DNA from: Desulfuromonadaceae bacterium
GTDB taxonomy: Bacteria; Desulfobacterota; Desulfuromonadia; Desulfuromonadales; Desulfuromonadaceae
NCBI GenBank assembly: GCA_034006915.1
Contig: JAVERW010000004.1
Location: 8,458 to 72,457 of the forward strand
Reading direction: 5' to 3'
DNA length: 64,000 nucleotides
Below, one piece after another: positions 10,817-62,049 of this stretch. The notes beneath the pieces are model-generated. The model did no database searches, had not been told where the DNA came from, and saw only the letters and a list, made by a program, of their open reading frames with translations. Numbering within the stretch: the stretch's first letter is position 1; the number at the start of each line of letters is the position of its first letter. Made by a program: the position numbers and the translations under genes.

Positions 10817-10846
10817 TGGTATTCAAAGGAGTATCACTTTAGAGCT

Positions 10847-42887: not shown

Positions 42888-42920
42888 AGTGGTGTTGTGA
42901 TCTGTAAGTCTTAAGAGTGT

Positions 42921-42980: not shown

Positions 42981-42999
42981 TTATGAAGCATTTATCACT

Positions 43000-43950: not shown

Positions 43951-43958
43951 GGACCTCA

Positions 43959-45058: not shown

Positions 45059-45099
45059 CCACGACTTGAGCTGCCATGTATGGCTAGATCAAGTCGTGG
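45059..45099 (-). terminator. intrinsic terminator of minus-strand gene 45113-45616
   Basis: 11-bp perfect stem CCACGACTTGA (45059-45069) / TCAAGTCGTGG (45089-45099), followed on the minus strand by GTTTTGAT. Confidence 0.5.
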
Positions 45100-45112
45100 A
45101 TTAATTGATTGT

Positions 45113-45616: not shown

Positions 45617-46367
45617 ATTTACTCCTTAGCCTCTAGTTTGAGATTTTGGCTGATCCGCTAGCAACAAAATACAGAGAGCTGGGTAAAATATGACAAGAAG
45701 GTGTGCCGGGCTGCTTAATAGCTTCGCGATGCGGATCTGCTAGCGTGCCTTGACGCTTTCTAAATAATCACATGTTTATATATTTCATGTCAATCAGTTT
45801 GTTAGATGTCACACAGGAGGGACAGCATTGAATGCCCCGTGCGTTTGCTTGATTTTTAAGCTCATTTTATTTATTCGTTGCAATATGTGTGAAAGTGGAG
45901 TGCAAGTCCCTATTTTGCAGATGTAAAGTGAACTTGCATTAGTCACCATGTTAGTGTGGCTAATCAAGCAAGCGGGATTGTTGTTGGCTTGTGTGGCGCC
46001 CTGTTGATTGTTGGTAGAATGTAATTCAAATATTGAGCGATGATTCCAAAGACTGTCTGATTTAAAGTCTCTTGCTTACATGCTCAAAAAAACAGCAATC
46101 CGCACAATCCCACTTCCTATCTACACAATTCAGTCTACTCAAGCGAGTATTCCACAGATACCAGTGGAAAACAGAATGCCCTCAAGCTATGGTCAAGCGT
46201 GAATCCTGATCGGCATTATCTTTAACATCTAAACCTGAAGACTTGTTTTTGGGCATGTCGCCTATGAATGATTCTTTGATTTTTCTTAATAAAATCTGTA
46301 TATTTACTATATTGTTTTTATTCGCTGGGTGATGCATATGAGCAGGAGGAATCTTTCCATATGCTGA

Positions 46368-46412
46368 AACCACTGTGCCAGGCAGATACCGGCCCAGTGG
46401 TTTTCTCTTTTT
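46368..46412 (+). terminator. orphan + strand intrinsic terminator 25 nt upstream of hsdM1
   Basis: Stem AACCACTG (46368-46375) / CAGTGGTT (46395-46402), then TTCTCTTTTT. No annotated + strand gene lies upstream within 1.5 kb. Confidence 0.45.
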
Positions 46413-46436
46413 AGACTATGTGATTGGTCAGAATAA

Positions 46437-48940: not shown

Positions 48941-49383
48941 TGGCCGCCATAGTTTACATTACGCTGGATCAGGCCATTGAAATCCACCGCAAAACGGTGG
49001 AGGTGAGTGGTGGCGGTGCGATGGGCGCCCTTAATCTGGGCCAACTCGAAAGCGTCTTGGAAAACATTCAAAACGATTTGTATTATCCCACCATTGAAGA
49101 CAAACTGACACACCTGTTCTTCGGCTCGAATAAATTTCATTGCTTTGAAGACGGAAACAAGCGGATTGCACTTTCATTGGGTGCACAGTTTCTGCTGCTG
49201 AACGGCTATGTGTTTGCCGCCACGCGGTTCATGCGTGAGATGGAAAATGTCAGCTATCATGTCGCTGCAGGCCTGATATCTAAAGAGTTGCTCCGAACGA
49301 TAGTTGATGAATTGATTAACGAAGACGAACTAAGCGAATCCACTAAGCTCGCCATTGTGAGCGCACTGATCTCTGAGGAATGA
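48940..49383 (+). CDS. doc: Doc (death-on-curing) Fic-fold toxin
   Basis: 147 aa. ITLDQAIEIHRKTVEVSGG and the Doc-type Fic motif HCFEDGNKRIAL. Confidence 0.8.
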   Translation: MAAIVYITLDQAIEIHRKTVEVSGGGAMGALNLGQLESVLENIQNDLYYPTIEDKLTHLFFGSNKFHCFEDGNKRIALSLGAQFLLLNGYVFAATRFMREMENVSYHVAAGLISKELLRTIVDELINEDELSESTKLAIVSALISEE

Positions 49384-49399
49384 TTTTTTAGAGGAAACA

Positions 49400-50860
49400 A
49401 TGAACCAACAAGAACTTGAAAAATACCTCTGGGGTGCGGCTACGGCTTTGCGCGGCACTATTGATGCCGGAGACTATAAACAGTTCATTTTTCCGCTCCT
49501 CTTTTTTAAGCGTATCTCTGATGTTTATGATGAGGAGTATCAAAACGCTCTGGCCGAAAGTGGTGGCGATGTTGAATACGCTGAGTTTGCTGAGAACCAT
49601 CATTTCCAGATCCCTGAAGGGGCGCATTGGAATGATGTTCGAGAAACTACCGTCAATGTCGGGATGGCTTTGCAGGATGCCATGCGCGAGATCGAAAAAG
49701 CCAACCCTGAAACCCTGCACGGTATCTTTGGCGATGCCAGTTGGACCAACAAGGATCGCCTATCCGATGAGATCCTCATCAGCCTGATTGAGCATTTCAG
49801 TCAGCACAAACTGACCCTTGCCAATGTGCCTGATGATCAGCTCGGCAACGCCTACGAATACCTGATCAAAGAGTTCGCCGACGATAGCGGTCACACTGCT
49901 GCGGAATTTTACACCAACCGTACCGTGGTCAAGCTGATGACTATGATCATGGACCCGCAACCGGGGGAGAGCGTCTACGATCCTACCTGTGGTTCTGGTG
50001 GTTTGCTGCTGAACTGTGCGTTGTACCTGAAAGAAGATGGGAAGGAATACCGTACCCTCAAGCTCTACGGACAGGAGATCAACCTGATTACCTCGGCCAT
50101 TGCCCGTATGAACATGTTTATGCACGGTATTGAGGAGTTCAGCATTGTGCGGGGCGATACTTTGGTGCAACCAGCCTTTCTGGAAAACGATGAGCTGAAG
50201 AAATTCAACATCATCCTTGCGAACCCTCCCTATTCGATCAGAGCATGGGACCGTAAGAGTTTTGAAAATGATCCTTATGGGCGCAACATCTGGGGGACGC
50301 CTCCGCAAGGATGTGCGGACTACGCCTTTCAGCAGCACATGCAGATGAGCCTCGATGACGAGAATGGTCGGGCTATTTCCCTTTGGCCGCACGGTATTCT
50401 CTTTCGTGACTCAGAAGCGTCCATGCGCCGCAAAATGATAGAGGCCGACCTGGTTGAGTGTGTCATTGGGCTGGGGCCGAACCTCTTTTACAACTCACCG
50501 ATGGAAGCCTGTTTGCTGATTACTCGGACGAAGAAGGATGAAGCAAAACAAGGGAAGGTGCTGATTATCAACGCAGTTAAAGAAGTACGGCAGGATAAGA
50601 ATATCGCCTTTTTGGAAGAGGGGCACATCGATCGGATTCTCTATGCCTATCAGAAATTTGAGGATCAGGATGGGTTCTGCAGGGTGGTACCGGTTGAGGA
50701 GATATTGAGCAACAACGCCAGCTTGAATATGGCACTGTATGTCAGCAATGTCGATGTCGGTGCTGAACGTATCTCTCTCAATGAAGCGATCACCAAGTGG
50801 GAAGCCTCTTCGATCGATTTGAAAGAGAGTATGACTGATCTGTTCAAGGTCTTGGGCTAG
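49400..50860 (+). CDS. hsdM: type I R-M N6-adenine DNA methyltransferase subunit, copy 2
   Basis: Same motif series as copy 1 (FIFPLLFFKRISDVYDEEY, AEFYTNRTVV, DPTCGSGGLL, LANPPYS). Directly followed by hsdS and hsdR. Confidence 0.9.
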   Translation: MNQQELEKYLWGAATALRGTIDAGDYKQFIFPLLFFKRISDVYDEEYQNALAESGGDVEYAEFAENHHFQIPEGAHWNDVRETTVNVGMALQDAMREIEKANPETLHGIFGDASWTNKDRLSDEILISLIEHFSQHKLTLANVPDDQLGNAYEYLIKEFADDSGHTAAEFYTNRTVVKLMTMIMDPQPGESVYDPTCGSGGLLLNCALYLKEDGKEYRTLKLYGQEINLITSAIARMNMFMHGIEEFSIVRGDTLVQPAFLENDELKKFNIILANPPYSIRAWDRKSFENDPYGRNIWGTPPQGCADYAFQQHMQMSLDDENGRAISLWPHGILFRDSEASMRRKMIEADLVECVIGLGPNLFYNSPMEACLLITRTKKDEAKQGKVLIINAVKEVRQDKNIAFLEEGHIDRILYAYQKFEDQDGFCRVVPVEEILSNNASLNMALYVSNVDVGAERISLNEAITKWEASSIDLKESMTDLFKVLG

Positions 50861-50862
50861 AT

Positions 50863-51975
50863 ATGAAGATGGATAGAATTGATTTGAATAATCTCGATAA
50901 ATCGACCTGGACGACTTACCGTTTTGACCAGATTGCATCAAGTATTTCAGAGCGCGTTGATCCGACCAATACCGACTTAAAGCACTACATCGGGTTGGAG
51001 CACATCGACTCGGAGAATATTCACATTACCCGCATGGGCGCACCTACTGAGGTCAGCGGACAGAAGCTAAGGTGCTATCCCGGAGATGTAATCTTCGGTC
51101 GTCGCAGAGCGTATCAGCGGAAAGCTGCTGTGTGTGAGGTGGATGGATTCTGTTCTGCTCATTCATTGGTATTGCGCGCAAATCCCGAAATTATCGATCC
51201 GAAACTCTTTCCGTTCTTTCTCCACTCCGACACCTTTATGCATAGGGCGGTAGACATTTCCGTAGGGTCATTATCGCCAACGATCAATTGGGGAGCACTC
51301 AAAAAACAAGAATTTCTTCTTCCACCCAAAGAGCAGCAAGTACAGTTAGTTGGAATTCTTTGGGGCATGGATGAAGTGGTTGCGAAGGATAGACAATTAT
51401 TAAATTCCATCACAAAAGCCAATAGTATAGTTATTACAAACGAAATTAAGAACTTGCAGACTAATTATGAAAACACAGCTCTGTGTGAACTCGTAGAGTT
51501 ACGCACTGGGAAGCTAGACTCAAATGCTGCAATAGAAAACGGCAAATTCCATTTTTTTACATGTGCACCGGAAACATTAAGAATTGACACTTATTCTTTT
51601 GACTGTGAGGCAATTCTGTTAGCAGGAAACAATGCTGCGGGTGTTTATCCCTTAAAGCATTATAAAGGTAAGTTTGATGCGTATCAGAGAACTTATGTAA
51701 TAACAATCAAAGATGATGTTGGACTTAACTACCGATATCTGTTGGAGGTAATACGGTCTCAACTTGGCTTACTTCAAAGGCATTCTGTAGGTAGCTCAAC
51801 AAAATTTCTTACAATGGGCGTCCTGAAAAAAATGAAGATACCTGTTCCAACAGAAACAGATCAAAAGATAATGGTGAAAAAAGTTGAAGCTTTTTCCAAC
51901 TCTATAAGCAAGACAAACACCGCCTTGAGCGCTGGTATCTCTATGCAAAAATCCCTAATCAATCAGGTATTCTAA
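50863..51975 (+). CDS. hsdS: type I R-M specificity subunit
   Basis: 370 aa between hsdM and hsdR. Two-TRD layout with central and C-terminal conserved helices (Methylase_S-like). Confidence 0.8.
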   Translation: MKMDRIDLNNLDKSTWTTYRFDQIASSISERVDPTNTDLKHYIGLEHIDSENIHITRMGAPTEVSGQKLRCYPGDVIFGRRRAYQRKAAVCEVDGFCSAHSLVLRANPEIIDPKLFPFFLHSDTFMHRAVDISVGSLSPTINWGALKKQEFLLPPKEQQVQLVGILWGMDEVVAKDRQLLNSITKANSIVITNEIKNLQTNYENTALCELVELRTGKLDSNAAIENGKFHFFTCAPETLRIDTYSFDCEAILLAGNNAAGVYPLKHYKGKFDAYQRTYVITIKDDVGLNYRYLLEVIRSQLGLLQRHSVGSSTKFLTMGVLKKMKIPVPTETDQKIMVKKVEAFSNSISKTNTALSAGISMQKSLINQVF

Positions 51976-51976
51976 G

Positions 51977-54943
51977 ATGACCTTCACCGAACTCAACAGC
52001 GTAGAGCACTTCATCGTTCGCGAACTTACGGGTGTCAATCTCAACAAGGAAGGCACAGCCGAGTTAAAAGCTGGCTTCGGTTCCTCCTGGCAGTACAAGC
52101 CACCCCAAGAGCTGAAACGGGGCGTCAACGAAGTGCTCGAAGAGAGTGAAGTGCAGGCCGCGCTGATTCGTCTCAACCCGGAGATTGCCGCCAAGCCGGA
52201 ACGGGCCGATGAAGTCATCTACAAGCTCCGCGCTATTCTGATTTCGGTTAACCAAGTCGGGCTGGTCAAGGCCAACGAAGAGTTCTTCTTGTGGCTCACC
52301 GGCGAGAAGACCATGCCCTTCGGCGAGAATAACCGTCACGTCCCCATCAAGCTCATCGACTTTGAAAATCTCAGCAACAACACCTACACCGTCACCAACC
52401 AATTCCGCATCCATCACCGTGAAACCAAAATTCCTGATGTCGTTCTGTTGATCAACGGAATCCCGGTGGTGGTCGGTGAAGCCAAGACCCCGATTCGGCC
52501 TTCGGTGAGTTGGCTCGATGGTGCCCATGAAATCAACGCGATCTACGAAAATGCCGTGCCGCAACTCTTTGTGCCCAACATCCTGTCTTTCGCTACTGAA
52601 GGGAGGCAATTATATTACGGTGCTATCCGTTGTCCGCTAGAGTTCTGGTCCCCCTTGCGGAAAGAGGAAGACAATAATCAGGTTGCCAGAGCGCTGGGGC
52701 TGTCGGAAGTTGGTGCCGAGCTGAATGATCTCCTCAACCCGGCCCGATTGCTCGACATCATGCGCAACTTCTCCCTCTTTACCACCAATAAGAAGAAGCA
52801 GCGCACCAAGGTGATTCCACGCTTCCAGCAGTACGAGGGGGCCAATAAGATCGTTGCTCGGGTAAAAGAGGGACGCATCAAAAAGGGGTTGATCTGGCAC
52901 TTTCAGGGGTCAGGAAAATCGCTGCTCATGGTTTTTGCAGCGCAGAAGCTGCGTCGCGCGCCGGAGCTGAAAAGCCCGACTGTAATCGTACTGGTTGATC
53001 GCGTTGATCTCGACACCCAGATCAGTGGCACCTTCAATGCCGCCGATGTGCCAAATGTGGAAAGCACCGAGAGCATCAGCGAACTGCAAACCATGCTGGA
53101 GCGTGACACCCGTAAAATCATCATCTCAATGATTCACAAGTTCCGCGACGCCAAGCCGAACATGAATACCCGCGATAACATCATCGTCCTGGTCGATGAA
53201 GCCCACCGTACCCAGGAGGGTGATCTGGGGCGCCAGATGCGGGCTGCGCTGCCGAATGCGTTTCTGTTTGGTCTGACCGGTACGCCAGTGAACAAGGCCG
53301 ATAAGAATACCTTCTGGGCCTTTGGTTCCGAGGATGATCAGGGCGGCTATATGTCGCGCTATACCTTCCACGATTCGATCCGTGACGAGGCAACCCTGCC
53401 ACTGCACTTTGAGCCGCGCCTGGTTGATGTGCATGTCGATACGGAATCGCTCGATAAAGCGTTTGCTGAATTCAAAGATAGTGCTGCTCTTTCCGACGAA
53501 GAGGCTGATGCACTGAACAAGAAGTCAGCAAAAATGTCAGCGTTTTTGAAATCACCTGAGCGTGTTGAGAAGATTGTTGAGGACATTGCTACTCACTTTA
53601 AGGAGAAGGTTGCCCCGCACGGATTCAAGGCGATGATTGTCACGCCGGATCGTCATGCCTGTGTGCAATACAAGGAAGAGCTGGATAAGCATTTTCCGGA
53701 AGAGGCGAGCAAGGTTGTCATTTCGACTTCAGCTAACGATGATCTCGAATTCAAGCAAAAGTGGAGCGTTGATAAAAGCCAACAGGAGAAAGTGGTCGAT
53801 GAGTTCAACGATGCGAAGTCGGATCTGAAGTTCATCATCGTCACGGCTAAACTGCTGACCGGCTTCGATGCACCTATCCTGCAGACCATGTATCTCGACA
53901 AATCACTCAAGGATCATACCCTGTTGCAGGCAATCTGTCGCACCAACCGCCTCTATCCGCAAAAGTCCTTCGGTCGGATTGTCGATTACTTCGGCATTTT
54001 CGATGACGCCGCCAAGGCCCTTGAGTTCGACGAGAAGACGATTCAGCAGGTGATCACCAACCTCTCTGAGCTGCGCGATAAGCTCCCACAGGCGATGGCC
54101 GATGTGCTGGCCCACTTCCCTGATGTTGATCGCTCTCTGGACGGATTTGAAGGGTTAGAAGCTGCCCAGAACGCCATTAATACCAACGATAAGAAAGATG
54201 CCTTCGCTCGTGACTTCAAGTATCTCGCCAAGCTCTGGGAATCACTGTCACCAGACAATATCCTGAATATTTATAATCAGGACTATAAGTGGTTGGCGCA
54301 GGTCTATGAGTCGGTTAAACCCGCATCCGATAACATTGGCAAGCTGCTGTGGATGACTCTCGGGGCGCAGACGACACAACTGATCCACGAGAATATCCAT
54401 GTCGGAGATGTGCATACGCTTGATGAGTTTGTGTTGGATGCGGATGTGGTCGAGGAGATCTTCAATAACCCTGACCCGAAGAAAGTCAAGCAGCTCGAAA
54501 AGGCACTGATCAAACGATTCAAAAAACGCGCAGGAAATCCGAAGTTTAAATCCCTGAGTGAACGGTTGGAGGAGTTACGTGACAGAGCCGAGAAGGGTTT
54601 GATCTCCTCAATCGAGTTCGTCAAGGAACTCTGCATGCTGGCCAAGGAGACAGTGCAGGCTGAGAAGGAGTTTGAGGAAGAGATTCAGGAAAAGTCTCCA
54701 CAGGCAGCGCTTACCGAACTTTTTCTGGAGCTTAAAACCGATCAGACCCCTGCGGTTGTAGAGCGGATTGTTGCGGACATCGATTCGATTGTTCGGATCG
54801 TGCGTTTCCCCGGATGGCAGCAATCGACCCAGGGTGAGCGCGAAGTGCAGAAATCGCTGAGGAAGGCATTATTGAAGTACCAGTTGCATAAAGACCAGGT
54901 ACTGTTTGATCGGGCTTATGCGTATATAAAAGAATATTACTGA
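51977..54943 (+). CDS. hsdR: type I restriction enzyme R subunit
   Basis: 988 aa. N-terminal PD-(D/E)xK (DVVLLINGIPVVVGEAKTP), helicase motif I FQGSGKS and DEAH box VLVDEAHRTQ. Confidence 0.92.
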   Translation: MTFTELNSVEHFIVRELTGVNLNKEGTAELKAGFGSSWQYKPPQELKRGVNEVLEESEVQAALIRLNPEIAAKPERADEVIYKLRAILISVNQVGLVKANEEFFLWLTGEKTMPFGENNRHVPIKLIDFENLSNNTYTVTNQFRIHHRETKIPDVVLLINGIPVVVGEAKTPIRPSVSWLDGAHEINAIYENAVPQLFVPNILSFATEGRQLYYGAIRCPLEFWSPLRKEEDNNQVARALGLSEVGAELNDLLNPARLLDIMRNFSLFTTNKKKQRTKVIPRFQQYEGANKIVARVKEGRIKKGLIWHFQGSGKSLLMVFAAQKLRRAPELKSPTVIVLVDRVDLDTQISGTFNAADVPNVESTESISELQTMLERDTRKIIISMIHKFRDAKPNMNTRDNIIVLVDEAHRTQEGDLGRQMRAALPNAFLFGLTGTPVNKADKNTFWAFGSEDDQGGYMSRYTFHDSIRDEATLPLHFEPRLVDVHVDTESLDKAFAEFKDSAALSDEEADALNKKSAKMSAFLKSPERVEKIVEDIATHFKEKVAPHGFKAMIVTPDRHACVQYKEELDKHFPEEASKVVISTSANDDLEFKQKWSVDKSQQEKVVDEFNDAKSDLKFIIVTAKLLTGFDAPILQTMYLDKSLKDHTLLQAICRTNRLYPQKSFGRIVDYFGIFDDAAKALEFDEKTIQQVITNLSELRDKLPQAMADVLAHFPDVDRSLDGFEGLEAAQNAINTNDKKDAFARDFKYLAKLWESLSPDNILNIYNQDYKWLAQVYESVKPASDNIGKLLWMTLGAQTTQLIHENIHVGDVHTLDEFVLDADVVEEIFNNPDPKKVKQLEKALIKRFKKRAGNPKFKSLSERLEELRDRAEKGLISSIEFVKELCMLAKETVQAEKEFEEEIQEKSPQAALTELFLELKTDQTPAVVERIVADIDSIVRIVRFPGWQQSTQGEREVQKSLRKALLKYQLHKDQVLFDRAYAYIKEYY

Positions 54944-54964: not shown

Positions 54965-56434
54965 TTGGGAAAATACGGTCTTAGTAAATCATTGATCCTA
55001 AAGGGCATGCAATGCCCGAAAGCGCTTTATCTCCAGAAGAACCCGCCAGACTTTGAATTTCCGCCACAGCCTGATCTTGAAGCCAGGTTCCGTGCCGGTC
55101 ATGAAGTCGGCATTCTCGCCCAGCAACTCTTCCCCGGCGGTACCGAAGTCCCCTTTGATGGGCTGTCGATTCCTGAACAGGTTGAGCAAACCCGGCAACT
55201 GATCGAATCGGGCGCCAAAGTTATATACGAAGCCTCGTTCGAGTACGATGGCATTTTCGTCAAGGTCGATATCCTGGTAAAGGACGGCGACGCCTGGCAA
55301 ATCCATGAAGTGAAAATGTCGACCTCGGTCAAGGAGGTCAACCTCAATGACGTGGCAATCCAGTTCTATGTGCTCGGTCAGTGCGGGCTGCTTATTTCGG
55401 GCGCGTACTTGGTGCATATCAATAACCAGTATGTACGGCAGGGGGAGATTGATGTGCAGCAGCTCTTTGCCAGTCAGGACGTGCTGGAAGAAGCTGTTAC
55501 GCGTCAGGCCGGTCTGCAGCAACTGATCGATGATCTGCGCGTCAGCTTGCAGGGTGACGAACCGCAGATTGATATCGGTCCGCATTGCAGCGATCCGTAC
55601 GACTGTGATTTTGCCCCATACTGCTGGCAGCATATCCCGGAGAACTCGATCTTTGATCTGCGTGGCAACGGGGTGAAGAAATGGAGCCTCTACGAGCAGG
55701 GCATTATCCGCTTCGATCAGATTCCCCTGGAGATGCTAAACAAGAACCAGCGCCACCAGGTTGAGGCTACTTTGAATCAGCAGAATTGCATTGACCCGCA
55801 GTCGGTGACAGCTTTTCTGGATACCCTCTGGTATCCGCTCTATCACCTCGATTTCGAAACCTTCAATGCTGCAATCCCCAAGTTTGACGGAACCCGCCCT
55901 TATCAGCAGGTGCCGTTCCAGTTTTCACTGCATGTTCAGCAGGAGGCCGGTGCCGAGCCGGAGCATTACGAATATCTCGCGGCGCCGGACGTTGACCCTC
56001 GGCGTGAACTGATTGAGCAGTTACTTGCTCTGATCCCTGAGGATGGTTGCGTCCTGACCTATAACCAGACGTTTGAGAAGGGGGTACTGCGAAACCTGGC
56101 GGAGTTGTTCCCCGATCTGGCTGATGCGATCAATAATCGTGTGGAGAATGTGCGTGACCTGATGGTGCCGTTCCGCAGGCGAGATGTTTACCGCTGGCAA
56201 ATGCGTGGCTCCTATTCGATCAAAGAAGTGCTTCCGGCGATGGTTCCTGAGCTTTCTTATTCAGGGATGGAGGTTGCCGACGGTATGGCGGCGATGCAGG
56301 CGTATCATGATATGTGTGCGTTGGGGCCTGGGGCGGAGCTGGAGCGATTGCGGGCGGCGATGCTGGAGTATTGTCAGTTGGATACGTTGGCTATGGTGAG
56401 GATATTGGGGGAGTTGGAGTATGTAATTAAGTAG
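54965..56434 (+). CDS. DUF2779-family protein (Cas4/RecB-like PD-(D/E)xK nuclease with Cys cluster)
   Basis: TTG start. N-terminus LSKSLILKGMQCPKALYLQK, EVKMS, Cys cluster HCSDPYDCDFAPYCW, C-terminal LEYCQLDTLAMVRI. Confidence 0.7.
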   Translation: MGKYGLSKSLILKGMQCPKALYLQKNPPDFEFPPQPDLEARFRAGHEVGILAQQLFPGGTEVPFDGLSIPEQVEQTRQLIESGAKVIYEASFEYDGIFVKVDILVKDGDAWQIHEVKMSTSVKEVNLNDVAIQFYVLGQCGLLISGAYLVHINNQYVRQGEIDVQQLFASQDVLEEAVTRQAGLQQLIDDLRVSLQGDEPQIDIGPHCSDPYDCDFAPYCWQHIPENSIFDLRGNGVKKWSLYEQGIIRFDQIPLEMLNKNQRHQVEATLNQQNCIDPQSVTAFLDTLWYPLYHLDFETFNAAIPKFDGTRPYQQVPFQFSLHVQQEAGAEPEHYEYLAAPDVDPRRELIEQLLALIPEDGCVLTYNQTFEKGVLRNLAELFPDLADAINNRVENVRDLMVPFRRRDVYRWQMRGSYSIKEVLPAMVPELSYSGMEVADGMAAMQAYHDMCALGPGAELERLRAAMLEYCQLDTLAMVRILGELEYVIK

Positions 56435-56498
56435 GGTGTCACCCGAATTCAAGTAGGGCGGCCCCGAATACCAAGATTATAGGTTGACGGAGGAAGTT

Positions 56499-58016
56499 AT
56501 GAGAATCGAAGAAGCTGTTGAATGTATGTCAAAGATCAACCTTCACCGTATCCTTGACAGCTATACCAAGGACACCCTCAAGCCAGATGAAGAGACCTCT
56601 CGCAGACGTATCATGTCCGACCGCGATCTCCTTCAAAACGCTGAAAACATTTCAAAAAGAATGCAGTTCTCTGGTGTTTCTTTTGACACAAAAGCGTTGG
56701 CCTTTTTTCTGGTCGAGACGCTTTTGGGTGCTGACCGATGCCAGCTTGATGAGCAAACAATTATTTCAAGCATTACCGACTATGAGAAAAAAATTATAGA
56801 TGAAGCCTCTCATCCCGATATTTTCAAATACAAAAACACTGATGCGGTGAATATCTACAAAACCGTGCTGGAAGTTGCGCTTGAAGATGATGTTATCAGT
56901 GACGATGAGAAACGTCTTCTTGGTAAGCTGAGAGCACATGTAGGCTTGTCACTTAACGACCACCACTTGATCCAAGCTAGTCTGAAAAAATTCCCTAAAT
57001 CCGGAAACGAAATCCATACAGAAAAAGAAATTAAAAATGGATTGACCGATTTACAGAGGCGTGGTGTCGTTTTTTACTGCAACCAATGTAACGGTGGCCC
57101 CGTCTATATGATTCCTGAAGAAATTGTTCCTGGGGTGAAACTAGTCGTTGGGCTTGAGTTATCCAAAGACGCTTATGCTCTTCTACTGGATAAGCTGACA
57201 GTAAATGCCCTTTGGCAAATTCTCGAAACAAATGGTTTGCCGACTTCCGGAAAAAAGGGCGAAAGAATTCAGAGGGTTCAAGGAGCAGACATCCAGCCGA
57301 GTTGTGCTTTAAACGCACTATCAAATGATGAGTTGTACGAACTGTGCAAGAAGCTTCCTGGTGTCAATGTCAGTGGTAGTAAGGCAACGCGAATCAGCAA
57401 TATCATTAGCCACTTTGACAAGCTACGGGTTGTGGCGTGTGACGAAACGTCTGACAGTCGAGAAAAATACTACGAGTATTATGTTGAACTTGCCACCCGT
57501 GACAGGGAAAACTTGCTCACCAATAAGGTGATCAGCAAAGACAAGGATATGGACTTAGCTTTTGAAGAGGGCACACGGTACCTTTTTGAGAAGAAGTTAG
57601 GTCTGATCCTTGAGCCGATGACAGGCAGCGAACATGCAGATGGAGTTTTGAAGCTCCCTAAATCGAAAGAATTGTTCATGTGGGATACAAAGAGCAAAGA
57701 GACCATGTATGAGTTCCCAAATGATCACTTCAATCAATTCAGGCGATATATCTTGAATTCTACTGAACGAGTAAATTGTTTCATGGTGATTGCTCCGAAA
57801 ATTTCGGACAAGGCCGATGAAAATGCGTACCGGCTTAAAACGCAATCTAGCTCGGATACCGATGTGTCTCTCATAAGTGCTGATGATCTCAAGTGGGTTG
57901 CTGGAAATTGGAGTTCATATTCGACTAACGGCAAGTTTTCTCTCGATGTTTTCAATTTTACGGGGGTGCTTGATCGTGGGAGTTTGAAGAAGAGGATGAA
58001 GATCTTTTTGAAGTAG
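56499..58016 (+). CDS. orphan multidomain nuclease: TerB-like motif, two SAP-like motifs, FokI-like PD-(D/E)xK cleavage domain
   Basis: ATG 56499 after GGAGGAAG. SAP-like LTVNALWQILETNGLPTSGKKGERIQRV and LSNDELYELCKKLPGVNVSGSKATRISNIISHF. The C-terminus YYEYYVELATRDRENLL...ADGVL...FMWDTKSK...NQFRRYILNS is colinear with the FokI cleavage domain (YIELIEIARN...PDGAI...VIVDTKAY...EMQRYVEEN). Confidence 0.6.
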   Translation: MRIEEAVECMSKINLHRILDSYTKDTLKPDEETSRRRIMSDRDLLQNAENISKRMQFSGVSFDTKALAFFLVETLLGADRCQLDEQTIISSITDYEKKIIDEASHPDIFKYKNTDAVNIYKTVLEVALEDDVISDDEKRLLGKLRAHVGLSLNDHHLIQASLKKFPKSGNEIHTEKEIKNGLTDLQRRGVVFYCNQCNGGPVYMIPEEIVPGVKLVVGLELSKDAYALLLDKLTVNALWQILETNGLPTSGKKGERIQRVQGADIQPSCALNALSNDELYELCKKLPGVNVSGSKATRISNIISHFDKLRVVACDETSDSREKYYEYYVELATRDRENLLTNKVISKDKDMDLAFEEGTRYLFEKKLGLILEPMTGSEHADGVLKLPKSKELFMWDTKSKETMYEFPNDHFNQFRRYILNSTERVNCFMVIAPKISDKADENAYRLKTQSSSDTDVSLISADDLKWVAGNWSSYSTNGKFSLDVFNFTGVLDRGSLKKRMKIFLK

Positions 58017-58130
58017 ACAGCGTCGGGGTCGGGACAGTTCCGTGGGGCAGTTTCACGGAAGCGTCCTCAAACCCGAATTACTCATAATGCTAATTAATTG
58101 ATGTGTGCCCGGGATTCCCGGACAAACGTT

Positions 58131-58327
58131 TGGAGAATGTGCGTGATCTTATGGTGCGGTTTCGCAGGTGGGATGGAGATCGCTGAAGGCATTGCAGCGA
58201 TGCAGGCTTATCATGATATGTGTGCGTTGGTGCCTGGCGCGAAGTTGGATTGATTGCGGACGGCTATGCTGGAGTATTGTCGGTTGGATTCGTTGGCAAT
58301 GGTTAGGATTTGGGGGGAGTTGATGTG
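58131..58327 (+). repeat. diverged, internally deleted duplicate of the DUF2779 gene 3-prime end
   Basis: Aligns by eye to 56142-56180 and 56266-56427, for example GCGATGCAGGCNTATCATGATATGTGTGCGTTGG and ATGCTGGAGTATTGTC. About 85 nt of the original is missing between the two blocks. Confidence 0.8.
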
Positions 58328-58421
58328 ACTATGAGAACAGCACGCGATCTTGCGATGAATAAATACATATAAATAATTGCTATTTTAAAAAGCCTGCACT
58401 CCAAAAATCGAGGGTAACTAG

Positions 58422-59807
58422 ATGAGCAAAGACATTCAGATTCTAAAATCTCGAGATGACAAAAATCCAGTGATGTTTCAATCTTCCGAAGAGGTAGATT
58501 TGTTTACCCTTGTTGAAGGTCTTGATTGTTCATGGATAAAGCAAGACCAACAGTTTGGCCCTGAAAAGTTGAGGCCACGTATTGAGCCTTGGCTGACGGC
58601 GCTATTTCAATCCGAACATCTTGCATTGCTGGCTGGATCAGGGCTTTCTCACGCAGTTCATCAAGTCGCAACAGGCTCTCTTCTTCCTGGGATGTCCAAG
58701 GTATCCTTCAGCAGCTACAACGCAGAAATAGAAACTAAAGCTAAAGAATCTGCTGAAGAATTAGGAAGAGCAGAAGGGAATATTGAGGATCAAATTCGCG
58801 TGGTAAATGAACTGTTACGTGGACTTGACATACTGGCAGCAAATAATGCTGATTTCAAGAAACCGTTTGAGGCTTTGGATGGTGAACTAAATACAATTCT
58901 TAGTGAATTTGCGACATCAATTCTCCAAGGTGAAAATGGATTAATTACTGCTAGCGAGGAAAAACGTGAAGATGCTTTTAACTACTTAGTTAGTTTCTTG
59001 ATGAGTTTTTCTAGTCGTACAGGAACACGTGACCGACTTCAAATCTTTACGACCAATTATGACCGTTTTATTGAGGCGGGCGCAGATATTGCTGGACTTC
59101 ATCTTCTTGATCGTTTTGTTGGTTCTTTGACACCAATCTTTCGATCCTCACGGTTGGATGTTGATATGCACTATAATCCACCGGGAATCCGTGGTGAACC
59201 TCGATATCTTGAAGGAGTAGCGAGATTCACAAAACTACATGGGTCCCTGGATTGGGTCAGCTCAGAATCTCAGATTAGACGGTTTGGGCTTCCCTTCGGA
59301 GCAGATAAAGTTGAACCGTACCTAGGTGCCCCTGGTCTTTACGGGGCAAAGTCGTTGGATCTAATGATTTACCCAAACGCAGCTAAAGATCGAGAAACTT
59401 CTGCATACCCATACGTTGAATTGTTCAGAGATTTTGCCGCAACTGTTTGTCGTCCCAATAGCACACTGGTCTTGTTTGGATATAGCTTCGGTGATGAGCA
59501 CATTAATCGAGTTATTGAAGATATGTTAACTATCCCTTCAACACACTTGGTTGTTTTTTCGCATAGTGATCCTCTTGGGAGAATTATGAGTACCTACAAA
59601 AAACTTGGACGCCATGCGCAGATTACTTTGATGATTGGGACTCACTTGGGTGACCTTAGAACAGTTGTAGACAACTACCTACCGAAACCGGCTATTGATC
59701 GAACGACATTTAAAATGGGCGAGTTACTAAAGGCGAGATGGGGTACAGGTCAAGCTGATACACCTGAAGCCAGCAAAGAAGTGGATGCGGGGTGGTCTGA
59801 TGAGTAA
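58422..59807 (+). CDS. SIR2-like (SIR2_2 family) protein of a Sir2-HerA defence pair
   Basis: LALLAGSGLSHAV, IFTTNYDRFIE, KLHGSLDW, LVLFGYSFGDEHINRVI. Overlaps the herA start by 8 nt. Confidence 0.75.
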   Translation: MSKDIQILKSRDDKNPVMFQSSEEVDLFTLVEGLDCSWIKQDQQFGPEKLRPRIEPWLTALFQSEHLALLAGSGLSHAVHQVATGSLLPGMSKVSFSSYNAEIETKAKESAEELGRAEGNIEDQIRVVNELLRGLDILAANNADFKKPFEALDGELNTILSEFATSILQGENGLITASEEKREDAFNYLVSFLMSFSSRTGTRDRLQIFTTNYDRFIEAGADIAGLHLLDRFVGSLTPIFRSSRLDVDMHYNPPGIRGEPRYLEGVARFTKLHGSLDWVSSESQIRRFGLPFGADKVEPYLGAPGLYGAKSLDLMIYPNAAKDRETSAYPYVELFRDFAATVCRPNSTLVLFGYSFGDEHINRVIEDMLTIPSTHLVVFSHSDPLGRIMSTYKKLGRHAQITLMIGTHLGDLRTVVDNYLPKPAIDRTTFKMGELLKARWGTGQADTPEASKEVDAGWSDE

Positions 59808-62049
59808 AACCCTCTTCGAACATGCTGGAACATTGCGTATTGGTTCTGTGGACTTTGTATCACCAGATGAAATCAAAGTTTTACTTGATATTGAGGCCCC
59901 TGACTCAGTCGCACTAAACACTGGTGGGCCCATGCCCTTCCCAAGGGTAAATAGTTACGTTTTGATCCCAGTTGATGATGGCTACCTTGTTGGCCAAATC
60001 GAATGGCTCACCGTGGAACGATCTTCTTTCCCTAAACGTCGTGGCATGCAAGATTTTGGAGTTATAGATATGCCATATCCACTACGGCGTATGAGCCTGA
60101 ATCCACTTGGAACACTCAGGAAGAGATCGAACAGGACCGAAAAATATGTATTTCGTCGTGGTGCAGATGCGTTTCCGTCTATTGGTTCAGGAGTCCTGCT
60201 TCCAACAGATACACAGCTGCGTTCTATAGTCGAATCCGGTGATAGACGTAGAGTTAAGCTTGGGACAAGCCCTTTAGCGGGGCACGCTGAAGTTTGTGTG
60301 GACCCGGATCGTATTTTCGGTCGGCATCTTGCGGTGCTTGGGAATACTGGAAGCGGTAAATCATGTACAGTTTCGGGTTTGATCCATTGGTCGCTAGAAC
60401 AAGCACAAGCGTTCAGTGGGAAAACACCCAATGCACGTTTTATAGTCCTAGACCCCAATGGAGAATACGCGAATGCTTTTGGTGATACTGCTAGAATCTT
60501 TCAAGTTAACTCGGAGACGAATCCACTCAAAGTTCCGTTATGGTTTTGGAATAGTGCTGAGTGGTGCGCTTTTACACATGCAAGCGCTAGAGCTCAAGTA
60601 CCTCTGATTAAGCGGGCTCTTCGTTCGATGCGAAACGAAGAATTTGAAGTCAGTGACAATATTGATATTGCAGCTAAACGGTTTCTGGGGATCATTCTTC
60701 AATCCATTATCTCTAGTAAAAATTCTGGAGAGCCATTCTATAAGGAGTTTCCTGATGCCAAAAACTTCATGGACCGCTTGTCTCTTTGGAGTACAAGCGT
60801 TGGTGAATACGATGAAATAATAGATTTTGATTTAAGCGAATTACGCAGAACACTCGATGAGTCGGTTGCTGCGCACAAAGTCAAGCAGCCTAATGGTTGG
60901 ATTAATTATTCAGTCTTTTTGGCTAGTGAAGTTGACGCGTTGATCGATTGTCTACGAACCACCTACGAGGGCCTCGGAGGAAGTCCCAACGATTTATTGC
61001 CTAAAAATGAAGATGTACCAGTAAAGTTTCCTGGAAACATCTTCGTTGATTTTCTCGAAGGTCTTGCTCAAGAAACAGGCAACGAACAATATGTAGAATT
61101 TCTGCTCGCGCGTATAAGAACCATGCTGGCAGATACTAGGATGAGTTCTGTTATCAGTGATGATGAGGACATTACGCTAGAAAGTTGGTTGATGCAATAT
61201 ATTGGAGGTAGTACAGGTGAAGGTGGATGCGTTTCTGTTATAGATCTCTCCCTAGTTCCAGCAGAGATAATCCACCTAGTTACATCAGTGATTTCGAGAA
61301 TGTGCTTTGAGTCATTGCAACGTTATCGAAAGTTGAAAGCGAAAACGCTGCCCACTGTTTTGGTTATGGAGGAAGCACACACATTCATCAAAAAGTATCG
61401 TGAAAATTCAGAAGATCAAAACGTTTCAGCTATCTGCTGCCAAGTCTTTGAGAAGATAGCCCGTGAGGGCCGTAAATTTGGACTTGGGCTAGTTCTCTCA
61501 TCTCAACGACCTTCCGAGTTGTCACCTACTGTACTCTCTCAGTGCAATACGTTCCTCTTGCATAGAATTAGCAACGATAGAGACCAAGAATTAGTCCACA
61601 AGTTGGTTCCCGACAATCTCAGAGGTCTTCTCAGAGAGCTTCCATCTTTGCCTTCACAAAATGCTATTCTGCTAGGTTGGGCTTCCGAACTACCGGTTCT
61701 GGTAAGAATGAATGATTTGCCGAAATCTCATCAGCCTCATTCGGCAGATCCAGACTATTGGGATGTCTGGGTAGGTCAGGACGAAGATGGCAGTATGGTC
61801 AAACGAGATGTTAATTGGAAGGAAATATCTTCTGAATGGCAGAATAAAATGCTTACTGAAGAGCAATGTATTCACTGTGAAGATTTCCTTACAGAGCAAG
61901 AAAGCGAGTTTTGCAATACCGGTGGTGTAGAGTGTTGTGATTGTATTTGCACTAAGTGTTTAAAGGCTTATGTGAATTGCTCGGGTTGCGGATGCAAAAC
62001 TCAAAATGAAGACATTTGTGATGTTTGCAGAGATCATATAGAAGATTAA
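59800..62049 (+). CDS. herA: HerA/DUF87-type ATPase of a Sir2-HerA pair, with C-terminal Cys-rich extension
   Basis: ATG 59800. N-terminal barrel-like GTLRIGSVDFVSPDEIKVLLD, Walker A LAVLGNTGSGKSCTVSGL, Walker B VLVMEEAHTF. The last 60 aa contain 13 Cys. Confidence 0.8.
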   Translation: MSKTLFEHAGTLRIGSVDFVSPDEIKVLLDIEAPDSVALNTGGPMPFPRVNSYVLIPVDDGYLVGQIEWLTVERSSFPKRRGMQDFGVIDMPYPLRRMSLNPLGTLRKRSNRTEKYVFRRGADAFPSIGSGVLLPTDTQLRSIVESGDRRRVKLGTSPLAGHAEVCVDPDRIFGRHLAVLGNTGSGKSCTVSGLIHWSLEQAQAFSGKTPNARFIVLDPNGEYANAFGDTARIFQVNSETNPLKVPLWFWNSAEWCAFTHASARAQVPLIKRALRSMRNEEFEVSDNIDIAAKRFLGIILQSIISSKNSGEPFYKEFPDAKNFMDRLSLWSTSVGEYDEIIDFDLSELRRTLDESVAAHKVKQPNGWINYSVFLASEVDALIDCLRTTYEGLGGSPNDLLPKNEDVPVKFPGNIFVDFLEGLAQETGNEQYVEFLLARIRTMLADTRMSSVISDDEDITLESWLMQYIGGSTGEGGCVSVIDLSLVPAEIIHLVTSVISRMCFESLQRYRKLKAKTLPTVLVMEEAHTFIKKYRENSEDQNVSAICCQVFEKIAREGRKFGLGLVLSSQRPSELSPTVLSQCNTFLLHRISNDRDQELVHKLVPDNLRGLLRELPSLPSQNAILLGWASELPVLVRMNDLPKSHQPHSADPDYWDVWVGQDEDGSMVKRDVNWKEISSEWQNKMLTEEQCIHCEDFLTEQESEFCNTGGVECCDCICTKCLKAYVNCSGCGCKTQNEDICDVCRDHIED

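What the first reader, a model, noticed from the sequence alone, without database searches (positions are those of the whole stretch)
56499..58016. Orphan TerB-like / double-SAP / FokI-like nuclease with no cognate methyltransferase: candidate new single-gene defence
Seen: the C-terminal ~170 aa are colinear with the FokI cleavage domain, including the catalytic D...D-x-K (ADGVL ... WDTKSK) and the following helix (NQFRRYILNS versus EMQRYVEEN). The middle carries two SAP-like DNA-binding motifs. Residues around 130-165 (ALEDDVISDDEKRLLGKLRAHVGLSLNDHHLI) resemble the TerB-type helical repeat. The first ~110 aa are unassignable. No methyltransferase is paired with it, since the nearest are the type I hsdM genes 5.6 kb upstream. 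It sits as an inserted cassette between DUF2779 and Sir2-HerA. Established: the FokI domain is a non-specific nuclease that must dimerise and is targeted by its fused binding domain. SAP motifs bind DNA with little sequence specificity. Inference: this could be a modification-dependent or structure-sensing (type IV-like) nuclease, or a triggered abortive-infection effector. I do not recognise the architecture as a named system.
Basis: partly seen in the sequence, partly recalled or inferred. Interest (0 to 1): 0.75.

Follow-up and report, generated by a model that had tools for sequence, protein, structure and literature searches.

The report
Orphan TerB–SAP–FokI-like nuclease gene
This gene encodes an uncharacterised but widespread, horizontally mobile DNA-cutting enzyme that joins a FokI-type cleavage domain to unusual DNA-binding and sensor-like domains, has no protective methylase, and sits in an anti-phage defence island, so it is a credible but untested new kind of stand-alone defence nuclease.

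Summary
Window 56499-58016 (+) is an intact 505-aa gene under strong purifying selection (dN/dS about 0.05).

I add a winged-helix-like unit at aa 170-217. The first 222 aa fold confidently but match no solved structure.

The family is large (391 clusters at 50% identity; 238 loci in 185,579 species genomes). It is patchy across bacterial phyla and archaea, and one copy is in a haloarchaeal provirus. Its roughly 500-aa architecture is almost invariant.

No DNA methyltransferase and no SIR2, HerA or hsdR gene recurs beside it; a DUF2779 gene does so only in two close relatives (L093, L098). Most annotated contexts are defence islands or mobile elements.

The only recurrent neighbour is a potassium-channel gene: 17 copies within 2 kb of the gene and none at 2-10 kb.

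In the window, a decayed duplicate of the DUF2779 3' end marks the insertion.

No paper, PADLOC, NCBIfam or PHROG model covers the family. The best reading is a methylase-independent stand-alone defence nuclease gated by its N-terminal domain. The mechanism is untested.

The parts
56499..58016 (+). Whole gene, 505 aa: TerB-like / winged-helix-like / SAP-SAP / FokI-like nuclease
   Evidence: ORF. Full-length homologs from 96% down to 24% identity. dN/dS 0.065 and 0.045 against L088 and L089.
56489..56493 (+). Shine-Dalgarno GGAGG, 5 nt before the ATG at 56499
   Evidence: Sequence read. Conserved as ACGGAGG in L088, L089 and L085.
56499..56678 (+). N-terminal helical segment (aa 1-60), unassigned
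   Evidence: AF2 helices H3-54. Invariant M10, L15, R17, R35. No Pfam or PDB match.
56682..56981 (+). TerB-like helical region (aa ~62-161); conserved acidic residues E73, E85, D130, E137
   Evidence: Pfam TerB in 23 of 30 homologs, above the cut-off in P0039, P0051, P0065 and P0079 at aa ~83-152. Weak hits in the query itself. Tic110 helical repeat 4bm5 at aa 107-158.
57006..57149 (+). Winged-helix-like unit (aa ~170-217): helix 175-187, beta hairpin 192-204, helix 210-217
   Evidence: AF2 secondary structure. The Foldseek hits are all non-significant and are mostly winged-helix regulators or ORC/Cdc6 winged-helix domains. Invariant H173, L182, L185, Q186, G189, N195, P206, E208.
57165..57287 (+). 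SAP motif 1 (aa ~223-263)
   Evidence: Pfam SAP at aa 230-263, E 5.3e-5, 23.2 bits. Above the cut-off in homologs. PDB SAP proteins Tho1, 2rno and 1zrj align here.
57297..57419 (+). SAP motif 2 (aa ~267-307)
   Evidence: SAP_new25 at aa 277-307, E 0.052 in the query. SAP above the cut-off at the equivalent position in P0173, P0162 and P0217.
57459..58013 (+). FokI-type PD-(D/E)xK cleavage domain (aa ~321-505)
   Evidence: Pfam FokI_cleav_dom in 29 of 30 members. Foldseek FokI E 8e-7, N.BspD6I 1e-3, HindIII. hhalign over aa 361-424.
57639..57692 (+). Catalytic motif: codons D381 (57639-57641), D396 (57684-57686), K398 (57690-57692)
   Evidence: Invariant in 30 sequences. Aligned to FokI D450, D467 and K469. 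D...WDxK is kept in the haloarchaeal homologs.
54965..56434 (+). Upstream neighbour: DUF2779 / Cas4-like nuclease gene. Not a conserved partner.
   Evidence: Pfam DUF2779 E 9e-46; PADLOC Cas4 E 8e-8. Found beside the target only in L093 and L098.
58124..58325 (+). Decayed duplicate of the DUF2779 3' end (copy of 56135-56420), the scar of the insertion
   Evidence: Direct repeats D1 and D2 at 81-86% identity, with an ~83-nt deletion between them. Also present in the sister strain L093.
58422..62049 (+). Downstream neighbour: SIR2-HerA defence system. Independent of the target.
   Evidence: PADLOC SIR2 1e-157 and HerA 1e-255. No SIR2 or HerA next to any other of 171 loci. The sister strain L093 has an AAA_13 gene there instead.

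Best explanation
This is a stand-alone, horizontally mobile, methylase-independent defence endonuclease from an uncharacterised family.

**Shown here.**
- The C-terminal domain is a FokI-type PD-(D/E)xK nuclease with an intact, invariant D-D-x-K site.
- The helix that forms the FokI dimer interface is also highly conserved.
- The domain is fused to two SAP motifs and a winged-helix-like unit.
- A conserved N-terminal helical domain of about 160 aa contains a TerB-like region.
- No methylase is paired with it.
- The gene sits in defence islands or mobile contexts.

**Inferred.**
- As in FokI, a monomer cannot make a double-strand break, so cleavage needs two nuclease domains to come together on DNA.
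- The SAP and winged-helix units bind DNA with little or no sequence specificity.
- The conserved TerB-like N-domain packs against the rest (pTM 0.82 for the whole chain) and keeps the enzyme off.
- It would release the enzyme on a conserved physiological cue, possibly an ionic or membrane perturbation at phage entry, as the recurrent potassium-channel neighbour suggests.
- The enzyme then cuts DNA.
For: **Nuclease identity and active site.**

**Compact, confident fold.** Full-length pLDDT 90.2 and pTM 0.82. The N-domain alone gives pLDDT 90 and pTM 0.84.

**Selection.** dN/dS is 0.045-0.065.

**Constant architecture.** A profile of aa 1-222 finds 391 clusters. Every full-length relative checked has the same roughly 500-aa layout.

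**No partner methylase or other universal partner.**
- All-vs-all clustering over 84 and then 172 loci.
- Pfam census of 150 neighbours: the top family is HTH_3, with 4 members.

**Defence or mobile context.**
- The window itself.
- L177: type I R-M, HEPN, GmrSD_N, AAA_15.
- L087: Mrr_cat, DUF4365.
- L086: VapBC, PIN, caspase.
- L002 and L173: integrases, AAA_13/16, WYL.
- L001: transposases.
- L089 and L094: Fic.
- L175: two HNH genes.
- L014: GmrSD.
- PADLOC hits among neighbours: RmrA x3, GajA, HEC-05, IetAS, SoFic, AbiEi.

**Patchy distribution and transfer.**
- 238 loci in 185,579 species across many phyla and archaea.
- Copies 82-85% identical are shared by Gemmatimonadota, Acidimicrobiia and Spongiisociaceae MAGs.
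- Copies on a haloarchaeal provirus and a megaplasmid.

**TerB in other systems.**
- TerB domains occur in the defence systems Shango, Bunzi and Dionysus.
- A parallel TerB-repeat plus HNH protein exists, P0232.

**Potassium-channel neighbours.** 17 within 0-2 kb against 0 in 2-10 kb of flank. Most are Kv-type with a TVGYGD filter.
Against: - There is no functional data of any kind.
- The query's own TerB and FokI scores are below Pfam thresholds, so the assignments rest on the family.
- TerB is not recovered structurally: no significant Foldseek hit for aa 1-222.
- Some homologs lie among housekeeping genes (L004; L141). Formal defence-island enrichment was not computed.
- Gating by the N-domain and an ionic cue are pure inference. 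About 90% of loci, including the window, have no adjacent channel.
- Dimerisation was not modelled.
- The gene is almost absent from viral contigs (1 hit in 2.9 million). That is neutral for defence but shows it is not typical prophage cargo.
Confidence: 0.5

Rival explanations
1. It is a type IV-like, modification-dependent restriction enzyme. The winged-helix and SAP module would recognise modified DNA (for example hmC, glucosyl-hmC or m6A), and the FokI-like domain would cut nearby. On this reading the enzyme is always on and harmless to unmodified host DNA.
For: - It is solitary and has no methylase.
- The layout, a winged-helix-like unit plus a PD-(D/E)xK nuclease, resembles Mrr and DpnI (my knowledge).
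- It lies beside other type IV genes in islands: GmrSD in L014 and L177, Mrr_cat in L087.
Against: - No recognised modified-base reader (SRA, PUA/EVE/YTH, Mrr_N) was detected.
- The whole protein, including the putative DNA-binding part, is uniformly conserved from bacteria to archaea. Diversification would be expected for target recognition.
- This reading does not explain the large conserved TerB-like domain or the channel neighbours.
Confidence: 0.2
2. It is an ordinary type IIS restriction enzyme that has lost its methyltransferase.
For: It has a FokI-type cleavage domain. Type I hsdM genes lie 5.6 kb away in the window.
Against: - No adjacent DNA methyltransferase recurs in 46 non-redundant loci or in 172 loci.
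- The N-terminal region shows no similarity to FokI recognition domains.
- The gene is intact and under purifying selection, and the architecture is conserved without a methylase across phyla.
Confidence: 0.03
3. It is a non-defence, structure-specific DNA repair or processing nuclease analogous to FAN1 (SAP, helical domain, PD-(D/E)xK nuclease). It would act on host DNA intermediates.
For: - SAP motifs are typical of repair nucleases, and one member hits Fan1_SAP weakly.
- Some loci are among housekeeping genes.
- Sequence conservation is very high.
Against: - It is present in only about 0.13% of species genomes, with clear inter-phylum transfer.
- It often lies beside integrases, transposases, toxin-antitoxin and defence genes.
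- Foldseek finds FokI and restriction enzymes, not FAN1/VRR-nuc.
- Truncated or decayed copies exist in several genomes (L050, L051, L057, L059, L067).
Confidence: 0.1
4. It is an accessory component of a neighbouring system in the window (SIR2-HerA or the DUF2779/Cas4-like nuclease) rather than an independent unit.
For: - It lies directly between the two.
- The DUF2779 3' end is duplicated around it.
- L098 (85% identity) also has a DUF2779 3' end upstream.
Against: - No SIR2, HerA or hsdR homolog lies next to the target in any other of 171 loci. DUF2779 appears only in L093 and L098.
- The sister strain L093 keeps the target but has AAA_13 in place of SIR2-HerA.
- Similarity to the closest homolog L088 begins only ~17 nt upstream of the ATG (from the ribosome-binding site); downstream it holds for the 35 nt until that contig ends, so the 3' boundary is not defined.
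Confidence: 0.03

Closest known systems
FokI (type IIS restriction endonuclease) cleavage domain, Pfam PF09254
   Same: It has a PD-(D/E)xK fold with D...D-x-K (D381, D396, K398 = D450, D467, K469). The following helix aligns with FokI helix alpha4, and R416 aligns with R487. FokI is the top Foldseek hit.
   Different: - There is no FokI recognition domain D1-D3.
- There is no cognate methylase.
- Sequence similarity is too weak for HMMER against PDB sequences.
- The N-terminus is TerB-like, winged-helix-like and SAP-SAP instead.
N.BspD6I / Nt.BstNBI-type nicking endonucleases
   Same: They carry a FokI-like catalytic domain and are the second-best structural match (E about 1e-3).
   Different: Those are sequence-specific R-M components with their own recognition domains and partner subunits or methylases (my knowledge). 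None of that is present here.
Mrr / DpnI-like type IV or methyl-directed enzymes (winged helix + PD-(D/E)xK, no methylase)
   Same: They are solitary nucleases without a methylase that combine a winged-helix-like unit with a PD-(D/E)xK domain. They also share the island habitat.
   Different: There is no Mrr_N or Mrr_cat match. The nuclease is of FokI type. The protein has extra TerB-like and SAP modules. Modification dependence is untested.
TerB-containing defence systems Shango (SngA), Bunzi (BnzA), Dionysus (DinB)
   Same: They contain a TerB-type helical domain in an anti-phage context whose role is unknown but is proposed to be membrane or stress surveillance (bioRxiv 10.1101/2025.09.30.679545 and 10.1101/2024.10.26.620412).
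   Different: Those are multi-gene systems with helicase/ATPase or pore-forming effectors. Here TerB is fused directly to a nuclease in one polypeptide. There is no PADLOC match to those models.
FAN1 (SAP-TPR-VRR_nuc)
   Same: The overall logic is similar: a SAP DNA-binding motif, a helical domain and a PD-(D/E)xK nuclease. One member gives a weak Fan1_SAP hit.
   Different: The nuclease subfamily differs (FokI rather than VRR-nuc). The distribution and context are those of an accessory gene.
P0232-type proteins (TerB/Tic110-like repeats x8 + C-terminal HNH)
   Same: The same TerB-like hairpin repeat (aa 113-163 of the query) is fused to a nuclease effector.
   Different: They have HNH instead of a FokI-like domain, many repeats, and no SAP or winged-helix unit. 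They are also uncharacterised.

Membership tests
FokI-type cleavage domain (PF09254) | Profile match to FokI_cleav_dom | tested here: met
   29 of 30 family members match, best E 7.7e-8. The query alone gives no hit at E<=1, and the scores seen individually are 15.9-22.8 bits against a cut-off of 25. The assignment is therefore at family level, backed by Foldseek.
FokI-type cleavage domain (PF09254) | Catalytic D...D-x-K in register with FokI D450/D467/K469 | tested here: met
   hhalign alignment. D381, D396 and K398 are invariant and are kept in haloarchaeal homologs.
FokI-type cleavage domain (PF09254) | Fold similarity to solved FokI | tested here: met
   Foldseek 2fok_B E 8.1e-7, prob 1.00; 1fok_A E 4.4e-6.
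Type IIS restriction-modification system | Adjacent cognate DNA methyltransferase | tested here: not met
   No recurrent methylase among 150 neighbours of 46 loci. No partner cluster in 172 loci. The window's nearest methylases are type I hsdM genes 5.6 kb away.
Type IIS restriction-modification system | Sequence-specific recognition domain like FokI D1-D3 | tested here: not met
   The model of aa 1-222 gives no FokI hit. The best PDB E-value is 0.45.
Type IV (modification-dependent) restriction enzymes | Nuclease acting without a methylase | tested here: met
Type IV (modification-dependent) restriction enzymes | Recognisable modified-base reader domain (SRA, PUA/EVE, Mrr_N, etc.) | tested here: inconclusive
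   No such Pfam hit. A winged-helix-like unit is present but cannot be assigned.
Type IV (modification-dependent) restriction enzymes | Cleavage depends on DNA modification | not testable with these tools
   This needs in vitro or in vivo assays.
TerB domain (PF05099) | Profile match above the Pfam gathering score | tested here: inconclusive
   The query has only weak hints. 23 of 30 homologs match, four of them above the 24.4-bit cut-off, but these cover only profile positions 40-111 of 118. There is no structural hit to a solved TerB.
SAP motif (PF02037) | Profile match above the gathering score, helix-extended-helix | tested here: met
   The query scores 23.2 against 23.9 bits. 26 of 30 homologs match, up to E 5e-10. 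The second SAP is above the cut-off in P0173, P0162 and P0217. AF2 shows two helix pairs.
Any named defence system in PADLOC-DB v2 / NCBIfam / PHROGs | Significant match to a system model | tested here: not met
   PADLOC best is PDC-S48 at E 0.006 over 47 aa. NCBIfam and PHROGs give nothing significant.
SIR2-HerA system (as an extra component) | Conserved co-location with SIR2 and HerA | tested here: not met
   There is no SIR2 or HerA in 171 other loci. L093 has AAA_13 there instead.

The most novel reading that the evidence does not exclude
The protein would be an ion- or membrane-state-gated immune nuclease. Its conserved TerB-like domain would sense the ionic disturbance that accompanies phage genome entry, such as potassium efflux or depolarisation. 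In about 10% of loci a dedicated voltage-gated potassium channel encoded next door would amplify or supply that signal. Sensing would release the FokI-like domains to dimerise and cut DNA. This would be the first direct coupling of a potassium channel or ionic signal to a restriction-type nuclease, and it would give TerB domains a mechanistic role in immunity.
Probability: 0.12. Interest if true: 0.85.

Novelty: new variant of a known kind. Interest (0 to 1): 0.6.

Why it matters
If it protects cells, it adds a widespread, compact, single-polypeptide defence nuclease whose FokI-type cleavage module works outside any restriction-modification pairing. That bears on three things:

- **TerB domains.** How they work in immunity is unknown for Shango, Bunzi and Dionysus.
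- **Self-control.** How a non-specific dimerising nuclease is kept safe without a methylase.
- **Ionic signalling.** Whether ionic or membrane signals feed into nucleic-acid immunity, given the potassium-channel link.

A second, naturally regulated FokI-like cleavage domain could also interest designers of programmable nucleases.

If it does not protect cells, the family remains a conserved orphan nuclease of unknown role.

Tried and rejected
**Searches that led nowhere**
- HMMER of the protein and of the family profile against PDB sequences gave no FokI hit, only weak SAP, Tic110 and PCNA noise.
- Foldseek of the N-terminal 222 aa against PDB found nothing significant.
- Foldseek of the full model against viral BFVD found nothing significant.
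- The promoter and terminator scan was not above shuffled expectation.
- Literature searches for FokI-like, SAP or TerB combined with defence found no relevant paper. The Humcor1 paper does not discuss the homolog.
- I looked for variants that pair the N-terminal module with other effectors. All full-length relatives checked keep the same architecture. A few have an N-terminal extension of about 100 aa, one with a weak, below-threshold zinc-ribbon hit (E 0.002). P0149 lacks the winged-helix part.
- The viral-contig scan gave one distant hit only.

**Ideas rejected**
- DUF2779 as a general partner. It appears only in L093 and L098.
- SIR2-HerA or hsdR linkage. There are no other cases.
- A larger mobile cassette around the gene. 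Similarity to the closest homolog L088 begins only ~17 nt upstream of the ATG, at the ribosome-binding site. Downstream it continues to the end of that short contig, so the 3' boundary is undefined.
- The 8-nt CCCGAATT on both sides of the gene as a target-site duplication. It is unsupported by other loci and probably chance.
- The TTG at 56484 as the start codon. The ribosome-binding site and the homologs favour the ATG at 56499.
Full report
**1. The observation**

The ORF is real and intact. It starts at the ATG at 56499, preceded by GGAGG at 56489-56493, and ends at the TAG at 58014-58016, giving 505 aa. The upstream TTG at 56484 is not the start, because homologs begin at the same MRIEEAV. 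G+C drops from about 0.54 in hsdR and DUF2779 to about 0.43-0.45 across this gene and SIR2-HerA.

The protein has hundreds of full-length homologs. There are 214 or more clusters at 90% identity and 391 clusters at 50% identity for the N-terminal 222 aa alone. Against the two closest DNA homologs, dN/dS is 0.065 and 0.045. This is a functional gene, not a chance ORF.

**2. Domains**

On the query alone, Pfam reports only a near-threshold SAP motif (aa 230-263, 23.2 bits against a cut-off of 23.9) and a weak second SAP (aa 277-307). PADLOC, NCBIfam and PHROGs give nothing significant. Scanning 30 diverse family members one by one gives a clearer picture:

| Pfam family | Members matched (of 30) | Best E-value |
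|---|---|---|
| FokI_cleav_dom | 29 | 7.7e-8 |
| SAP | 26 | 5.4e-10 |
| TerB | 23 | 1e-6 |
| SAP_new25 | 21 | 1.7e-6 |

- **TerB.** The match exceeds the Pfam cut-off in P0039, P0051, P0065 and P0079. It covers aa about 83-152, which is profile positions 40-111 of 118.
- **Second SAP.** It is called above the cut-off in P0173, P0162 and P0217.
- **Fold.** AlphaFold2 with the 30-sequence alignment gives pLDDT 90.2 and pTM 0.82 for the whole chain, which points to a compact multi-domain fold.
- **Structural matches.** Foldseek against PDB returns FokI first (2fok_B E 8.1e-7; 1fok_A E 4.4e-6; prob 1.0), then the nickase N.BspD6I (about 1e-3), then HindIII.
- **Active site.** hhalign of the family against the FokI cleavage domain puts D381, D396 and K398 on D450, D467 and K469. 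The helix NQFRRYILNS falls on FokI alpha4 (DEMQRYVEEN), with R416 on R487.
- **Conservation.** H379, D381, G382, W395, D396, K398, S399, E401, Y404, P407, H410, Q413, F414, Y417 and I418 are invariant in 30 sequences. D...WDxK persists in haloarchaeal homologs at 24-26% identity.

Two refinements follow. First, aa 170-217 form a helix plus beta-hairpin unit. Its only structural echoes are winged-helix proteins, and all of those hits are non-significant. Second, aa 1-222 as a whole fold confidently (pLDDT 90, pTM 0.84) but match no solved structure significantly (best E 0.45). TerB itself is not recovered structurally.

**3. Family, distribution and architecture**

A scan of one genome per species found 238 loci in 185,579 genomes.

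- **Where it occurs.** The hosts are mostly uncultured:
  - many Gemmatimonadota (Palauibacter and Longimicrobiales, including sponge-associated MAGs);
  - other bacteria: Acidimicrobiia, Bacteroidota, Myxococcota, Campylobacterales, Clostridia, Izemoplasma and Verrucomicrobia;
  - archaea: Methanomassiliicoccales, Thermoplasmata and Nitrososphaera.
- **Transfer.** Copies 82-85% identical are shared by Longimicrobiales, Acidimicrobiia and Spongiisociaceae MAGs. That indicates recent inter-phylum transfer.
- **Distant homologs.** These sit on the temperate Halorubrum siphovirus Humcor1 (HrrHm1_140) and on Natrinema plasmid pNVE500 near an integrase. IMG/VR otherwise holds one distant hit.
- **Architecture.** Every full-length relative retrieved with the N-terminal profile has the same roughly 500-aa layout.
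- **Variants.** The only ones are an N-terminal extension of about 100 aa (one with a weak, below-threshold zinc-ribbon hit), one internal deletion, and decayed copies.
- **Parallel design.** The TerB-like hairpin (aa 113-163) recurs as a repeat in other proteins. One is P0232, with eight repeats and a C-terminal HNH nuclease.

**4. Neighbourhoods**

All-vs-all clustering of flanking ORFs found no universal partner, first in 84 loci and then in 172. A Pfam scan covered 150 neighbours, one and two genes away on each side, from 46 non-redundant loci. It matched 188 families, and the commonest was HTH_3 with 4 members. No DNA methyltransferase recurred. PADLOC on the same set found scattered defence proteins: RmrA x3, GajA, HEC-05, IetA/S, SoFic and AbiEi.

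Annotated contexts:

| Locus | Notable neighbours |
|---|---|
| L177 | type I R-M, HEPN, GmrSD_N, AAA_15 |
| L087 | Mrr_cat, DUF4365 |
| L086 | VapBC, PIN, caspase-HEAT |
| L002 | integrase, AAA_16, AAA_13 |
| L173 | three integrases, IS91, WYL regulators |
| L001 | transposases |
| L089, L094 | Fic |
| L175 | two HNH genes |
| L014 | GmrSD |
| L004, L141 | housekeeping genes |

The window itself is a defence island:

- Fic (40922);
- AbiEi/AbiEii (42949-44846);
- a type I R-M with two hsdM genes and an embedded Fic (46437-54943);
- DUF2779/Cas4-like;
- the target gene;
- SIR2-HerA;
- a metallophosphoesterase.

No SIR2, HerA or hsdR homolog lies beside the target in any other locus.

**5. The one recurrent neighbour**

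A potassium-channel gene lies within 2 kb of the target in 17 of 172 loci. None lies in the 2-10 kb flanks: 17 in 0.54 Mb against 0 in 1.23 Mb.

- **Channel type.** Fourteen are small 6-TM Kv-type channels (Ion_trans + Ion_trans_2). The two I read in full, L035 and L154, carry a TVGYGD selectivity filter, and L035 has an arginine-rich S4 segment.
- **Position.** Their position varies: directly downstream, directly upstream, behind a DUF4236 gene, or on the opposite strand in the provirus.
- **Spread.** They occur beside targets from very different clades: the window's own clade (L085, 83% identity), a sponge-symbiont clade, Bacteroidales, a clade at 31% identity (L154), and Humcor1.
- **Weaker cases.** Three loci (L014, L105, L110) carry an RCK-type channel behind a GmrSD gene and are weaker evidence.

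Several loci are duplicates, leaving about nine independent cases. The window has no such channel.

**6. Insertion history in the window**

Positions 58124-58325 are an 81-86% identical, internally deleted copy of the last roughly 290 nt of the DUF2779 gene (56135-56420). The segment carrying the present DUF2779 3' end plus the target therefore sits between two copies of that 3' end. This is a recombination scar.

A metagenomic sister strain (L093, 99% identical target) has the same DUF2779, target and remnant. It then carries an AAA_13 ATPase gene instead of SIR2-HerA. The site is thus a variable defence hotspot, and the target is independent of what follows it.

Similarity to the closest homolog L088 begins only ~17 nt upstream of the ATG, at the ribosome-binding site. 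Downstream it continues for the 35 nt until that contig ends, so the 3' limit of the mobile unit is not defined.

**7. Mechanism**

What is shown:

- an intact FokI-type catalytic domain;
- two SAP motifs and a winged-helix-like unit;
- a conserved TerB-like N-domain;
- no methylase;
- an accessory, mobile, island-associated gene.

What follows from established knowledge of FokI is that one cleavage domain cuts one strand. Double-strand cleavage needs dimerisation through helices alpha4 and alpha5. In free FokI the cleavage domain is held against the recognition domain.

What I infer:

- The SAP and winged-helix units give low-specificity DNA binding.
- The N-domain gates the nuclease. It is strongly conserved, with invariant R17, R35, E85, D130 and E137, which fits a sensor of a conserved cue better than a reader of variable phage features.
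- The channel neighbours, and the historical link of TerB to membrane stress, suggest an ionic or membrane signal.

My estimates:

| Reading | Estimate |
|---|---|
| Methylase-independent defence nuclease | about 0.5 |
| Type IV-like subtype | about 0.2 |
| Repair-type nuclease | about 0.1 |
| Orphan type IIS enzyme | about 0.03 |
| Accessory to a neighbouring system | about 0.03 |

**8. Comparison with known systems, and novelty**

The nuclease works like, and is homologous to, the FokI cleavage domain. The protein is not a type IIS R-M enzyme, because both the methylase test and the recognition-domain test fail. It resembles Mrr-type solitary enzymes in logic but has none of their domains. 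It shares a TerB-type domain with Shango, Bunzi and Dionysus but matches none of their models. No paper in the searchable library describes this architecture.

I rate it a new variant of a known kind, namely solitary defence-type nucleases. It is a sound candidate worth testing, and the potassium-channel association is the most unexpected lead.

Noticed in passing
window 58124-58325 (copy of 56135-56420): There is a decayed, internally deleted duplicate of the DUF2779 gene's 3' end immediately downstream of the target. It is a recombination scar, showing that the target arrived together with a replacement DUF2779 3' end.
   Followed up: yes
L093 (Ga0182239_1001357) 940-6716 compared with window 54965-62049: A sister strain with a 99% identical target has the same DUF2779, target and remnant. 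It then carries an AAA_13 ATPase (743 aa, E 4.6e-186) where the window has SIR2-HerA. The spot downstream of DUF2779 is a variable defence hotspot.
   Followed up: partly
L035 11599-12519; L043 11597-12391; L047 9124-9924; L154 4803-5564; L118 1537-2268; L085 6854-7552; L013 12804-13583; L090 7602-8432: Kv-type potassium channel genes (TVGYGD filter read in L035 and L154) lie within 2 kb of target homologs from very different clades, including a haloarchaeal provirus. Across 172 loci, 17 lie within 2 kb and none at 2-10 kb. The window has no such gene.
   Followed up: partly
L090 (Halorubrum virus Humcor1, MW344765.1, HrrHm1_140) and L091 (Natrinema versiforme pNVE500, WP_138247088.1): Both records carry 546-aa 'hypothetical proteins' that are distant full-architecture homologs (profile E 1e-42 to 1e-45) with the D...WDxK motif kept. 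One is on a temperate archaeal siphovirus and the other on a megaplasmid near an integrase.
   Followed up: partly
L030, L035, L042, L044, L041, L032 (target genes at about 10001-11515): Target proteins 82-85% identical are shared by Longimicrobiales (Gemmatimonadota), Acidimicrobiia and Spongiisociaceae MAGs, several of them sponge-associated. This indicates recent inter-phylum transfer.
   Followed up: partly
P0232 (643 aa, metagenomic): This protein has eight TerB/Tic110-like helical repeats and a C-terminal HNH endonuclease. It is a parallel 'TerB repeat plus nuclease' design and is also uncharacterised.
   Followed up: no
window 46437-54943: The type I R-M locus has two hsdM genes (46437-47918 and 49400-50860). 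An unassigned 360-aa ORF and a 147-aa Fic/DOC gene (48940-49383) lie between them, followed by hsdS and hsdR.
   Followed up: no
window 40922-44846 and 43000-46500: A Fic gene (40922-42136) and an AbiEi/AbiEii pair (42949-44846) lie upstream. G+C falls to 0.38-0.40 over about 43000-46500, against about 0.50 in the flanks, so this is probably another acquired block.
   Followed up: no
L050, L051, L057, L059, L067/L151: Several genomes carry truncated or fragmentary copies. For example, a Desulfuromonadales MAG (L067) keeps only aa 389-505 at 84% identity. The gene is lost by decay in some lineages.
   Followed up: no
L089 585-1832; L094 3444-5009; L098 299-886: In the window's own clade (83-85% identity) the gene lies close downstream of a Fic gene in two loci: directly in L089, and with one small ORF between in L094. 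In a third locus it lies downstream of an ORF6N/Rha-type phage regulator that follows a DUF2779 3' end.
   Followed up: no
L013 11624-12829; L085 5649-6869: A DUF4236 protein of about 400 aa sits between the target and the Kv channel in two distant loci (39% identical to each other). It may be a third component of that variant.
   Followed up: no
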